A DNA stretch of 22,460 bases. Source: Eledone cirrhosa (taxonomy: Eukaryota). Below the pieces are notes generated by a model, which was given only the letters and a program-made list of their open reading frames with translations, did no database searches and was not told the DNA's origin. Shown piece after piece: positions 17,518 through 21,663 of the stretch. Both the position numbers and the translations under genes were made by a program. The stretch's first letter is position 1. Each line of letters opens with the position of its first letter. The stretch lies in NCBI GenBank assembly GCA_964016885.1, contig CAXHJY010000840.1:1-22460 (forward strand), read 5' to 3'.

Positions 17518-17551
<34 letters not shown>

Positions 17552-17553
<2 letters not shown>

Positions 17554-17740
17554 CGAAGGAAATGTGGTAAGGAACCAGGTGGACCATAACGCACCAAAGT
17601 ACTCAATACTTGAGGTAGTAGAGTGGGTAATAGGAACCAGTAAGACCCAGACAGCTGAGCTCAAGCCGTTTCGACGGCTAATTCTGGACAGAATTAGCCG
17701 TCGAAACGGCTTGAGCTCAGCTGTCGGGGTCTTACTGGTT

Positions 17741-17745
<5 letters not shown>
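17552..17745 (-). mobile_element. (TA)n-embedded short element with 57-bp terminal hairpin (copy A), putative Penelope-like derivative
   Basis: Arms 17630-17686 and 17689-17745 are 56/57 complementary. Homologous in inverted orientation to 21245-21443. (TA)n on both sides. Confidence 0.8.
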
Positions 17746-17775
<30 letters not shown>

Positions 17776-18504
17776 CACTGCAGTGAGGGTATATTAATGA
17801 GGTAGAGGAATATATATATATATATTCTACTCACTATATCAAGACATTTGACACCTCTCGCTTGCAATGACTTTTTTTCTGACAGAATGAGAAAATAGGG
17901 GGGGGGGGGGATCTCTGTTTCTTTTTAAAATCCAAGATGCTTTTTTTTTTCTTTTTTTTTTTTTTTTTTTGTTATTGCAGTTAAAAGAAAAAAGGAGGAT
18001 TTCTTTGTCAGAGATGAGCTCAGGTAAATTTAAAGAGCCAGTCATTCTACATGTATTTAGATTTTCACAGGCTTCTTTCTTTCTTTCTATTCATTCACCT
18101 GTGTTTCTACAAAGCCCTGTATGTTTTATCTGAACTAAATATACCCGACATACATAAATGTGTGTGTGTGTCTGTGTCTGTGTATATATATATATATATT
18201 TGTATATATATATAGTTGTGTGTGTGTGTATATATATATATTTGTGCACGTGTGTGTATGTTCGTGTGTGTGTGTTAACAGTCAGGAGACATGAAATAGT
18301 TGAAAATGCCTTAAGTAACTGGAAGCTATGAGGCATGACACAGGCACATAAAAAGATAGAGGTGATTATTATAATACCTTGTGTATATAAACATCCAATG
18401 TGTTGTGTATGTATAAATAGTATATGTATGTGGTTGTGTTCTGATACAGCTTTCCTCAATAGTAGCAAGAGTTATTACAGTCATAGAATGAAGCCATATA
18501 TATA

Positions 18505-18638
18505 TCTGTGTGTCCTGGGTTCAATAGGGGGTAACCACAGTAAGTAACTTACTCAATACATTAGTAGAGTGTAAATATAATGTTTAATATAGAAATGGCT
18601 TCTACAGGACTAGAACTGTTTCATTCAAAAGAAATCAT
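18505..18638 (-). mobile_element. TA-adjacent short element with truncated hammerhead-like motif, putative Penelope-like
   Basis: Minus strand ATGA-tttc-tttt-gaat-GAAAC-agttcta-GTC; shares TACTCAATAC...TAGTAGAGTG with copy A and a ~45-bp block with 11367-11413. Confidence 0.55.
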
Positions 18639-18687
18639 GCATGGTCCTTCATAATTTCTTAATTAGCAACAAGGTCTTGTATATATA

Positions 18688-19106
18688 GTACAGTAAACAT
18701 TATAAACAGAGGTTATATTACATGTGGGGCTGGACAGAATGTTGTAATACAGTAACATTATAAATATAGGGGTTACATTACATGTGAGACTAGACAATGT
18801 TATATCATAGTCGGTGGATTGGCAGTATCGGTAGAGGGTCGGACGCCATGCTTTGACGCATAGAGTTACGGCCCTTGCCATTCTGAGTTCAAATCTCGCC
18901 GAGGTTAACTTTGTCTTTCATCCTTACGGGGTCGATAAAATAAAGTACCAGTAACACACTGAGTAATTGCTGGCCTTGTGCCAAAAGTAGAAACAGTTAT
19001 ATCATAAACAGGGGTTACATTACATGTGGAGTTGGACACAATGTAATACAGTAACATTATAAACAGAGAGGATTACAATACATGTGGGGCTGGATAAGGT
19101 TATATC
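18688..19106. repeat. ~45-60-bp minisatellite (4 units) interrupted by a SINE
   Basis: Core ATAAA(C)AGRGGTTAYATTACATGTGRGRYTRGA recurs near 18702, 18760, 19004 and 19059. Confidence 0.8.
18810..18995 (+). mobile_element. tRNA-related SINE of a third family, with 11-bp TSD
   Basis: A-box-like TGGCAGTATCGG (18820-18831), B box GAGTTCAAATC (~18885-18895), central CTTTCATCCTTACGGGGTCGATAAAATAAAGTACC. TSD GTTATATCATA at 18799-18809 and 18996-19006. Confidence 0.85.
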
Positions 19107-19440
19107 GAGCAAGAAAGTTTTTACAAAATGCAAATCAAATTTCATAACACTTGAAATAAATATAAAATTATTATAAAACAAAAACTAACGCAAGATATCC
19201 AGCTATACCTCTTTCTCACTTCTATTCTTTCACTCTCTCCTTCTCTGAAGGAAATAAGCTGTATGCAGTCCTGGAGAGAGATGGGCTCAACCAGGTTCTA
19301 AAATGCCCTAGAAACGCCATATGTCAATATGGTGTTCCGACAACTCGTGAGTTAAACGGGTTCATATTCTACCATACCATAGGGACCCACTAGTTAGGTC
19401 CTGTTAGATAACCCCATATTTCTGCCTATCTACTATATCT

Positions 19441-19681
19441 TATATGTTTGTCGGAGATAAGCTGGCTTCTCTCACTCTCTCAACATAAACACACACCGTA
19501 CATTATATATTTTTCGGGGATAATGCCTCTCTCGCACCATACATTCTTTCTTGGAGATGAGCCCCTTTCACCATACATATATTTCTCTTTGTCTATCTAT
19601 CGTCATACATTATATAATTCCTGGGGTTAAGCCTTTCTCTCTCTCGCGCCATACATTATAATATTTCTCGACGATAAGCCT
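19441..19681. repeat. Degenerate ~40-bp tandem repeat (about 6 units)
   Basis: Approximate consensus CCATACATTATATATTTCTCGGGGATAAGCCTCTCTCGCA; units near 19441, 19496, 19537, 19571, 19603 and 19649. Confidence 0.7.
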
Positions 19682-20027
19682 CACCCCTACTATCTCAGAC
19701 AAGACAATGCAACAACGTGCTTCTAATAAGAAGCCTTGGTTGGCGTATGATGATCGCTCGGATAAATATTGACTGGGAACATGCAATGTGCGTGACCGTA
19801 TGGAAGAGCAATGGAATTGATGGATGAAATAGCAACACATCCCAGTATCAGACACCAGGGAATATGGTGTGGAGTAACTTGCTTAAGCCTTTCGTTATAT
19901 TTCTAATGAAAGACAGTTTATGATTTTCAAATAATTTTGAAAACAATCGATTATTTGAAGTGGTTTAGTAATACAAAGGCAGTTTCATGTGGTCTGGTAT
20001 CAACCTCACATATTGCTAGTAGCAGGA

Positions 20028-20160
20028 AAATCTTCCTCAAATCACGGGTTACTATTTTATTTTTTATACAAAAGCTAATGTACTCCTAAATTTATACTAT
20101 GGTTGAATAAAAGGAGCGATAATCACGGCTGGAGTATTTTTATTAGGGTTGCCAACAACA
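20028..20160 (+). mobile_element. Old degenerate dispersed repeat (SINE-like 3' part), related pieces at ~21040-21120 and ~21672-21760
   Basis: AAATCTTCCTCAAATCAC resembles AAATCACCCTCTAATTACAC (21084); GCTAATGTACTCCTA resembles GCTAATGTAGCCCTA (21688); TCACGGCTGGA resembles TCACTACTGGA (21726); ends in CAACAACA. Confidence 0.45.
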
Positions 20161-20590
20161 CATACGAACTAAGGACAAGACAGAACATTCTAGTTCCAAA
20201 TTCAGATCGAACCAAAATTGTTTTATCATACTTTATCTTCCATCAAAGATCGATGAGTTAGTAATCATACGCACATTATAGACATACATAATCACACATA
20301 CATATACAGATACACACATGCAGATAATTATACACATACACACCCAATACAGACACACACATACATAAACATGCATAGACACACACATACATGCACCGAC
20401 ACACGCATATTTGTTTTCTTTATCAATGCCATGTAATCGCAGAAAGTACACAAACACATCTTTTCTTTATTAAGGCCCAGTAATCACAGATCATAAGAAA
20501 ACTCTAGAGTACCAAAAGTCAAACTTGGCCATGAAAATATCTCTACTACGGTATGAGTACTCATTCCTGCTACAGCCAATATTTAGCGGA

Positions 20591-20737
20591 TATGTGTATG
20601 TGTGCCTATCTGTGTGTGTACGTACCTATGTACGTGTATGTGCCTATGTACATGTGCATGTGCCTATGTGCGTGTGTATGTGTATGTGCCTATGTACGTG
20701 TGTATGTGCGTGCGTGTGCCTATGTGTGTGCGCGTGT
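20591..20737. repeat. GT-rich cryptic repeat with recurring GTGCCTATGT
   Basis: Direct reading; about 6 CCTAT-containing units. Confidence 0.8.
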
Positions 20738-21211
20738 AAAAACATTTAAATCGACACAACCCCTGTCGCAGGAAAGAGTTGATCTCACAACACCAAAGTC
20801 CAAAGATGTCTTACCGAGGCACGAAGTTCAGAATGTGGAAATAAGCATGGACCAGTTGCATTGCTATGTTTTGTTGTTTTGTTTTACTATAATGTGACAT
20901 GGTTTTAACTGGGAATCGAAACCATATATAGCATATATATATATATATTAGAATGGAAGGCGAAAGAAAGACTACACTTTGATCTTAGCTAAAAGGCCGG
21001 ACACCACCAGATAATAACGACAGCAACATCTACAACGAGGAAACTACTATGTGGTCTCAAGATATGCTAGACCTAGTAGCTAAATCACCCTCTAATTACA
21101 CCTAACACCGTCAAAGGACAGGGGCACATCTCTCTCTCTCATATTTATATATGAATAAAATTAGTCCTTCATCAGTGATCTTCCAGCCTTCATTGGTATT
21201 TCTTCGCTTTG

Positions 21212-21244
<33 letters not shown>

Positions 21245-21249
<5 letters not shown>

Positions 21250-21442
21250 AACAAGTATGACCCCGACAGTAGAGCTCAAGCCGTTTCGACGGCTAATTGT
21301 GGACGAGTCCAGAATTACCGTCGAAACGGCTTGAGCTCTGCCGTCGGGGTCATACTTGTTCCTATTACCCACTCTACTACCCTAAGTATTGAATACTTTG
21401 GTGCGTTATGGTCCATCTGGTTCCTTACCACATTTCTTTCGT

Positions 21443-21443
<1 letters not shown>
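21245..21443 (+). mobile_element. TA-flanked short element with ~60-bp terminal hairpin (copy B), putative Penelope-like derivative
   Basis: Arms 21245-21304 and 21307-21365 (3 mismatches, 1 indel). The unique part 21366-21443 differs from copy A 17552-17629 at 5 of 78 positions. Confidence 0.8.
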
Positions 21444-21446
<3 letters not shown>

Positions 21447-21497
<51 letters not shown>

Positions 21498-21498
21498 G
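21447..21498. repeat. (GT)n microsatellite
   Basis: Direct reading. Confidence 0.95.
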
Positions 21499-21663
21499 TT
21501 TAGCCCCAGGTAGATGCTGACCTGATTAATCTAGGATAGGTGTTTCGGACATGACACACATGAGTGTGTGCATTCGTGTGAGCGTGAGCATACGTGTGTG
21601 TGTGTCAAACACCTTCGATCATAGATTAATCAGGTCAGGTTTTCCCTGAGGCTAAACAACAAC
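21498..21663. repeat. Imperfect inverted repeat (~50-bp arms) with an (AAC)n end on the right
   Basis: CTGACCTGATTAATCTA (21517-21533) pairs with TAGATTAATCAGGTCAG (21622-21638); also GTTTAGCCCCAGG/CCTGAGGCTAAAC and AGGTGTTT/AAACACCT. Confidence 0.8.

What the first reader, a model, noticed from the sequence alone, without database searches (positions are those of the whole stretch)
17552..21443. TA-targeting hairpin elements whose two arms change in concert between copies
Seen: copies A (17552-17745) and B (21245-21443, inverted) each have a 78-bp unique part plus a 57-60-bp hairpin with a 2-nt spacer, ending at the same ATAGGAAC/(TA)n junction. Three positions differ between copies yet are matched in both arms of each copy: A ATAGGAACCAGTAAGACCC.GACAGCTGAG versus B ATAGGAACAAGTATGACCCCGAC.G.AGAG. 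Inference: one arm is re-copied from the other during mobilisation (snap-back cDNA synthesis or template switch) or is actively homogenised. The asymmetric hairpin-plus-tail layout does not fit a MITE or a SINE.
Basis: partly seen in the sequence, partly recalled or inferred. Interest (0 to 1): 0.72.

Follow-up and report, generated by a model that had tools for sequence, protein, structure and literature searches.

The report
Twin-primed stubs of a Penelope retrotransposon
These two hairpins are stub-sized insertions of a recently active Penelope-like jumping gene that has tens of thousands of such stubs in this genome, and their matching arms likely arise because both cut DNA ends copy the same RNA up to its predicted capped start, which would explain how this class of elements builds its mirror-image ends.

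Summary
In detail: both hairpins, the 78-bp tail and the three concerted differences are there. They are not a stand-alone element. Copy A is a near-exact piece of a 3,543-bp Hydra-clade Penelope-like retrotransposon (RT plus C-terminal GIY-YIG) with intact tandem copies in this genome; a 16-mer from the tail has 49,212 exact hits. Stubs and multi-kilobase insertions share one layout: two head-to-head arms starting at fixed points 78 nt apart. Arms match at birth, then decay separately, so there is no ongoing homogenisation. A single snap-back fails: either arm can be the longer, mirror junctions are equally common (69 vs 79), and tail-less arms occur alone. Best reading: both cut target strands prime reverse transcription of one RNA. 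Stubs stop at a predicted transcription start, marked by a non-genomic G (47 of 53 junctions). The layout is published; my searches found no paper with this mechanism. No RNA data were available, and 0 of 20 arms longer than one unit stop at the next predicted start, which I cannot explain. The scan reached this reading before, on other pieces of this genome and in other genomes.

The parts
17552..17629 (-). Copy A 'tail' (c1-c78): the RNA stretch between the two inferred reverse-transcription start points; element sense is the minus strand
   Evidence: Identical to the intact 3,543-bp parent unit L174/L175
17601..17624 (-). Bulged hairpin (4 bp, 2-nt bulge, 4 bp) just 3' of the inner start point; the parent has a second such hairpin just 3' of the outer start point
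   Evidence: Folds this way in all common tail variants and in the parent's second copy; role inferred; lead from earlier notes
17630..17689 (-). Copy A tail-side arm (c79-c138)
   Evidence: 1 mismatch to parent (c98)
17689..17745 (+). Copy A tail-less arm (c135-c79), joined head to head with a 1-nt overlap
   Evidence: 0 mismatches to parent; same junction in 69 genomic copies, mirror junction in 79
17695..17730 (+). 3' half of a predicted type I hammerhead ribozyme (stem II 3' strand, GAAA, stem III, GUC cut site, stem I 3' strand); the 5' half lies upstream of c139 and is missing from the stubs
   Evidence: Alignment of 25 read-through variants read by eye; no Rfam hammerhead hit on the stubs; cleavage untested
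17523..17552 (.). (TA)n target, left flank of A
17743..17773 (.). (TA)n target, right flank of A
21245..21304 (-). Copy B tail-less arm (c79-c138), older subfamily
   Evidence: 91.7% to active parent
21305..21305 (+). G absent from the parent, directly before the predicted +1 A (21306); likely a copied 5' cap
   Evidence: This base in 47 of 53 junctions of this type; in 0 of 25 read-through variants
21306..21365 (+). Copy B tail-side arm (c139-c79), reaching the predicted transcription start
21366..21443 (+). Copy B tail (c78-c1)
   Evidence: 93.6% to A's tail
21212..21247 (.). (TA)n target flank of B; the other flank is ATAT then (GT)n 21447-21499

Best explanation
The hairpins are short insertions of a Hydra-clade Penelope-like retrotransposon, likely made when both cut ends of a (TA)n target prime reverse transcription of one element RNA at two fixed points 78 nt apart, the two cDNAs likely running to the RNA's predicted capped 5' end and being joined head to head. 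SHOWN: identity with the parent; two fixed outer ends (c1 and c79); either arm can be the longer; arms alike at birth and decaying separately; a sharp length limit at c133-c143; an extra G there. INFERRED: two priming events; one RNA molecule for both arms; c139 as the transcription start (initiator-like TT[T/C]A+1GT, TATA-like run at -29 to -31, ORF start about 230 nt downstream); the cap as source of the G; joining by microhomology; the stubs being dead on arrival. Why stubs dominate (inferred): the start points lie in the 5' UTR, 61 and 139 nt from the cap, so enzyme bound near the 5' end of its own mRNA can only make 61- and 139-nt cDNAs. Long copies need a template that extends upstream (read-through multimer or ribozyme-made circle; untested). 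Odds: PLE stub 0.97; two separate primings 0.8; c139 = capped start 0.7.
For: Parent: long copies run on into about 1.2 kb of 3' UTR and an RT-GIY-YIG ORF; the intact unit is 3,543 bp with a 718-codon ORF, in tandem. Two fixed ends: of 28 long insertions with both starts resolved among the 60 loci, 27 pair a c1 arm with a c79 (once c77) arm and 1 pairs c79 with c79; in stubs the second arm starts exactly at c79 in 50 of 70. Independence: tail arm longer 23, other arm longer 38, equal 9 of 70; mirror junctions 69 vs 79, p = 0.46; about 20 of the 60 long loci show one arm only, about a dozen of them starting at c79 (counted by hand). One template: in 21 long two-armed insertions arms differ by 0.9% vs 3.2% between insertions, and 34 variants private to one insertion are in both arms. 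RNA end: the longer arm ends in c130-c145 in 57 of 70 stubs, but only 1 of 28 partners of long arms ends there, so the limit belongs to the template class and is not a pause every pass meets. Extra base: C 47, T 4, G 2 of 53; C/G in 43 of the first 50 of 316 single-base junctions. Literature: purified PAc cuts and extends both strands, starts at two internal sites bounding the tail and is predicted to be a dimer (PMC11167929); the Penelope promoter lies in the pLTR (PMC2377424).
Against: No RNA evidence for the start site or the cap. 0 of 20 arms longer than one unit stop at c139 of the next unit (loci chosen for 784-786-codon open frames); a simple capped mRNA template would predict many. Some stub arms run to c140-c145 with genomic bases, so the start is not a single base. 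One search is confounded by a subfamily with a genomic G at c140 (3 of 25 read-through variants); one search is not. The partner arm was the strict nearest neighbour in only 9 of 21 long insertions (4 ties, 8 others) and 3 of 52 stubs (18 ties), so 'one RNA molecule' cannot be told from 'one source locus'. One stub has arms of two subfamilies (c081). Long palindromes can invert their centre or lose part of an arm after insertion, which could mimic mirror junctions and asymmetry in stubs. That reverse transcriptases copy a 5' cap as an extra G is recalled; searches gave no usable citation.
Confidence: 0.72

Rival explanations
1. Snap-back or self-priming: one cDNA (or an antisense template) folds back at the truncation point and copies itself, as the first reader proposed and as PMC3846280 suggested for PLE palindromes.
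For: Arms are alike at birth. Many junctions overlap by 1-4 nt (30 of 70). Arkhipova and colleagues read junction palindromes as self-priming (passages).
Against: A fold-back copy cannot hold template sequence beyond the fold point, yet the tail-less arm is longer in 38 of 70 stubs and by kilobases in L181, L274, L279. Folding back from the tail-less arm cannot add the 78-nt tail. Lone c79 arms exist.
Confidence: 0.1
2. Twin priming is right, but the limit at c139 is a polymerase stop or RNA processing site (for example ribozyme-region structure or bound protein), not the capped transcription start.
For: c139 lies inside loop 2 of the predicted hammerhead. No arm longer than one unit stops at the next c139 (0 of 20). 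No RNA data.
Against: Partners of long arms almost never stop there (1 of 28). The added base is strongly C in the cDNA (47 of 53). The site reads as an initiator with a pyrimidine at -1 in all 25 read-through variants.
Confidence: 0.2
3. The hairpin is a self-propagating non-autonomous element (MITE- or SINE-like master) copied as a unit by the PLE enzyme.
For: 69 copies share A's exact junction; 28 of the 29 other loci printed have the same 194-bp sequence as each other.
Against: The mirror junction is as common (79). A position-ordered sample shows dozens of different junctions. Stub subfamilies mirror those of the autonomous element. Stubs lack everything upstream of c139 and the second hairpin.
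Confidence: 0.05
4. Arms are homogenised after insertion by gene conversion or replication template switching.
For: 4 private variants in both arms of stubs and 34 in long insertions.
Against: One-arm private variants dominate (28 vs 4; 90 vs 34). Arm-arm divergence rises from 0.4% (10 copies with active-type tails) to 4.4% (17) and 6.8% (25).
Confidence: 0.03

Closest known systems
Hydra clade of C-terminal EN+ Penelope-like elements, incl. Hydra-1_Obim (Craig et al. 2021, PMC8557442; abstract, passages, section 11 and supplement rows seen)
   Same: RT plus C-terminal GIY-YIG in one ORF, DKT motif, CxCX5C linker, CxxC and CxH near the C-terminus, (TA)n targeting, hammerhead motif in the pLTR; clearly alignable by eye to the Hydra-1_Obim protein.
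   Different: A different family from Hydra-1_Obim (compared by eye only; 3.54 kb vs 2.5 kb, RWR for RWK, other ribozyme sequence). It has pLTRs and tandems, a 78-nt tail and tens of thousands of stubs.
Standard EN+ PLE insertion: partial tandem, adjacent inverted 5'-truncated copy, optional 30-40-bp tail (PMC8557442 fig. 2 legend; PMC3846280 passages; PMC2377424 passages)
   Same: Exactly this layout, here shrunk to about 195 bp.
   Different: The tail is 78 nt. The passages read do not describe a sharp shared length limit or an extra G, and PMC3846280 proposes self-priming on an antisense template.
PAc (Poseidon, Anolis) in vitro reaction (Frangieh et al. 2024, PMC11167929; parts 1-2 of 4 read)
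   Same: Two internal RT start sites that bound the tail, AT-rich target, both strands cut and extended, predicted dimer.
   Different: PAc start sites lie inside the ORF and are called non-homologous to the primer; here they lie in the 5' UTR and each has a 3-nt match to (TA)n. The parts read do not link two-strand extension to the inverted copies.
L1 twin priming (recalled, not read)
   Same: Both target ends prime cDNA on one RNA and the products are joined by microhomology.
   Different: In L1 the second primer anneals at a variable internal site and the two pieces do not overlap; here both starts are fixed and the pieces overlap, which gives a palindrome.
Non-LTR retrozymes (bioRxiv 10.64898/2026.07.22.740005, part 1 of 5 read; PMC4209133, part 1 of 4 read)
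   Same: PLE-derived, non-coding, hammerhead-related; the U3-A8 core variant is reported for Cercyon PLEs.
   Different: Retrozymes are head-to-tail arrays with whole ribozymes; these stubs are head-to-head and hold only the ribozyme's 3' half.

Membership tests
EN+ Penelope-like element (parent) | Single ORF with RT and GIY-YIG endonuclease | tested here: met
   718-codon ORF with YRDDG RT core and VIYQC...AYIG nuclease motif. Pfam and PDB gave no hit, so this rests on motifs and on the by-eye match to Hydra-1_Obim; 278 full-length homologs.
EN+ Penelope-like element (parent) | Partial tandems (pLTR), inverted 5'-truncated copy, one-sided tail | tested here: met
Hydra clade | DKT motif, CxCX5C linker, CxxC and CxH, no CCHH in the nuclease | tested here: met
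   DKT 118, CNCPDRSIC 573, CNLC 671, CKH 699; definitions; absence of CCHH judged by eye
Hydra clade | RWK motif | tested here: inconclusive
   RWR at the matching place (residue 38)
Hydra clade | Insertion into (TA)n | tested here: met
   Tail-side flank ends in an AT repeat in 84 of 94 position-ordered copies
Hydra clade | Hammerhead ribozyme in the pLTR | tested here: inconclusive
   Stems and a variant core (YUGANAA...GAAA...GUC) seen in 25 read-through variants; minimum-energy folding did not give the hammerhead fold; some subfamilies have C3 with A8; activity untested
Hydra clade | Placement in the RT phylogeny | not tested
   Reference sequences were seen only in a paper supplement and were not brought into a tree
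MITE (class II) | Terminal inverted repeats at both ends, fixed interior, link to a transposase | tested here: not met
   One arm is 78 nt internal, the interior varies per copy and the parent is a retrotransposon
SINE | Derived from tRNA, 5S or 7SL with own pol III promoter | tested here: not met
   The whole stub is accounted for by the PLE unit; no such Rfam hit
Non-LTR retrozyme | Head-to-tail units each with a whole type I hammerhead | tested here: not met
   Head-to-head, 3' half only

The most novel reading that the evidence does not exclude
Penelope-like elements insert by a dimer that primes two cDNAs on one RNA from two hairpin-marked sites, and use two template classes: the capped mRNA yields only dead 195-bp hairpin stubs carrying a copied cap, while full-length and tandem copies come from ribozyme-cut, circularised RNA with no 5' end. 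This would explain tail, inverted copy, pLTR tandems and the ribozyme's purpose in one scheme.
Probability: 0.3. Interest if true: 0.75.

Novelty: new variant of a known kind. Interest (0 to 1): 0.48.

Why it matters
How Penelope-like elements form their inverted and tandem structures is named as unresolved in PMC8557442. This family offers thousands of young insertions and many intact ORFs, and its statistics separate two-primer synthesis from fold-back and point to a start site at single-base resolution. That makes the question testable with an in vitro assay of the PAc type. In practice, tens of thousands of these hairpins would be misfiled as MITEs, SINEs or miRNA precursors (Rfam's best hits were sub-threshold miRNA models). 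Arm-arm divergence can date insertions as LTR pairs do. The element class and the layout are already known.

Tried and rejected
1) A canonical CUGAUGA hammerhead core at the hairpin tip: 3 hits, all junction variants; rejected. 2) A stand-alone 140-nt SINE-like RNA (my first idea, note 1): dropped when long copies ran on into the ORF. 3) Finding the partner through Pfam GIY-YIG: the 40 loci examined held other PLE families, with family stubs only as nearby separate insertions. 4) Rfam: only sub-threshold hairpin models. 5) Pfam and PDB for the ORF: no hits. 6) RNA evidence: no RNA holder listed. Contigs of four runs showed a depth step at both c1 and about c144 in X1 and X4, but contig depth is not copy number and X1 may be the source sample, so it is not used. 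7) One search's pattern missed the active subfamily (8 hits); one search corrected it (2,467 hits). 8) Circular template: successive units in one arm were identical over 400 nt in 10 of 17 pairs outside the L174 array but differed by up to 9 in others, and the array reads A-B-A-B-B; undecided. 10) A look-up of earlier findings by sequence found nothing. 11) No citation found for cap-derived G.
Full report
OBSERVATION. Copies A (17552-17745) and B (21245-21443, inverted) are real, align end to end and fold far better than shuffles (z about -20). I count positions from the tail end: c1-c78 tail, c79 = ATAGGAAC. The three concerted differences are c87, c92 and c105. The arms are imperfect: one mismatch in A; three mismatches and a deletion in B.

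ABUNDANCE. The window lies in a 3.0-Gb genome (host not named by any tool). A tail 16-mer has 49,212 exact hits, control 0. Of the first 100 hits I fetched 94 distinct copies: 70 are two-armed stubs, 8 have a long tail arm, 16 have one arm or another form; 84 of 94 have an AT repeat at the tail end. This sample comes from the first 14 Mb of one contig and needs an exact 16-mer.

PARENT. Long copies continue past the arm into about 1.2 kb of 3' UTR and an RT-GIY-YIG ORF. A protein search gave many 784-786-codon open frames, often 3.54 kb apart. One intact unit is 3,543 bp, with 718 codons from a Met about 90 nt downstream of c1. A differs from it at one base; B's tail and tail arm at 9 of the first 126. 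The ORF has DKT, CxCX5C, CxxC and CxH, which define the Hydra clade, and resembles Hydra-1_Obim by eye. Pfam and PDB gave no hit. I built no tree.

LAYOUT. Stubs and long insertions share one plan: an arm from c1 and an arm from c79, head to head. Among 60 loci taken from the first 100 of 2,467 read-through hits, 28 had both starts resolved: 27 were c1 + c79 (once c77) and one c79 + c79. About 20 showed a single arm from either start, and the rest were unresolved (hand counts). This is the published PLE layout of inverted truncated copy plus one-sided tail.

ARE ARMS CONCERTED? At birth, yes. In 52 usable stubs (of 58 parsed, of 94) arms differ by 4.8% within a copy and 11% between copies. In 21 long insertions the figures are 0.9% and 3.2%, with 34 insertion-private variants in both arms. 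Afterwards, no. One-arm private variants dominate (28 vs 4; 90 vs 34), and arm-arm divergence climbs from 0.4% to 6.8% with distance from the active subfamily. Strict nearest-neighbour pairing is weak (3 of 52; 9 of 21) because copies are too alike, and one stub is a subfamily chimera.

SNAP-BACK OR TWO PRIMERS? A fold-back cannot hold template beyond its fold point. The tail-less arm is longer in 38 of 70 stubs and the tail arm in 23. In L181 the tail arm is 272 nt and the other about 5.3 kb. A's junction occurs 69 times and its mirror image 79 times (p = 0.46). Tail-less arms occur alone. Two separately primed cDNAs explain all of this and fit the in vitro behaviour of PAc: both strands extended, two start sites bounding the tail. 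Caveat: palindromes can invert or delete after insertion, which weakens the stub evidence but not the kilobase cases.

WHY SO SHORT? The longer arm ends at c130-c145 in 57 of 70 stubs, whereas only 1 of 28 partners of long arms ends there. The limit therefore goes with the template. In sense orientation c139 is the A of TT[T/C]AGT, initiator-like, with a TATA-like run at -29 to -31 (consensus motifs recalled). Where one arm reaches c139 and the other c138, the base between them is C in 47 of 53 cases (the pattern excluded A); the parent has A or G there, never C, in 25 variants. Copy B has this base (21305). I read it as a copied 5' cap (mechanism recalled, no citation found). A smaller group of ends at c97-c101 sits at the predicted ribozyme cut (11 of 140 arm ends). 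Against the simple picture: none of 20 arms longer than one unit stops at the next c139, so long copies need another template, either read-through multimers or circles; one search did not decide. There are no RNA data.

START SIGNALS. Following earlier notes, I checked and found a similar bulged hairpin 3-5 nt 3' of each start point, conserved across tail variants. Each start also has UAU, matching a (TA)n primer end. Their role is inferred.

WHAT IS KNOWN. Class, clade, TA targeting and layout are published. Searches (open-access library only) showed no paper proposing two fixed primings for PLE inversions or start-site-limited stubs; PMC3846280 proposes self-priming. Most subscription papers and Repbase entries were not searchable, and I read most papers in part only (see Closest known systems; also PMC13282606 part 1 of 3, and PMC8969392 passages). 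bioRxiv supplements were not available; I do not rely on them. I wrote the twin-priming and cap reading in my notes before looking up earlier findings by words and place. Those AI notes agree but are not independent support.

VERDICT. Interest 0.48.

Noticed in passing
window 18498-18640 (and an arm-only piece near 11360-11420): Stub of a second family with the same plan: about 75-77-nt tail, arm starting at a fixed inner point, nearly the same bulged hairpin, and a canonical CUGAUGA hammerhead core in longer copies; hits in 25 of 293 loci held.
   Followed up: partly
L174, L175, L268 (G000:C1:91.47-91.49 Mb): One insertion holds 4.5 head-to-tail units whose variants read A-B-A-B-B, then a run of 55-bp repeats of c1870-c1927 at the junction with the opposite arm, as if the enzyme jumped back repeatedly.
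   Followed up: partly
L222 (copy c081): Stub whose tail and tail-less arm belong to one subfamily while the start of the tail-side arm matches another: a two-template or recombinant product.
   Followed up: partly
L092 (c023) and L284: Exceptions to the c1 + c79 rule: a c1 + c1 palindrome and a c79 + c79 palindrome.
   Followed up: no
L069: Tail arm stops at c139, adds GGAAAAAA and jumps to c820 of the element, suggesting a template jump at the predicted RNA 5' end.
   Followed up: no
G000:C1410 (L002, L032): A second contig carries the same locus with both A and B at 97-99% identity, likely the other haplotype; two of the arm mismatches in the window are absent there.
   Followed up: partly
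window 13140-14120 and 14258-15660: Two tandem 3' ends of a LINE with a zf-RVT domain (Pfam hit at cut-off); the Tx1/L1-like label is recalled.
   Followed up: partly
window about 8230-11270 and 1-800: A broken endonuclease-RT LINE and the 3' end of another LINE; CR1/L2-like and RTE-like labels are recalled from motifs, not tested.
   Followed up: no
window 1535-8179: 6.6-kb strand-biased (TA)/(CA) microsatellite array.
   Followed up: no
window 18689-19105: Dispersed direct repeats of about 60 bp in two clusters.
   Followed up: no
L114-L129: Other Penelope-like families with long open frames (up to 938 and 1,096 codons) and a CxxxxCxxC-type linker are present in this genome; 10,596 GIY-YIG candidates in all.
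   Followed up: no
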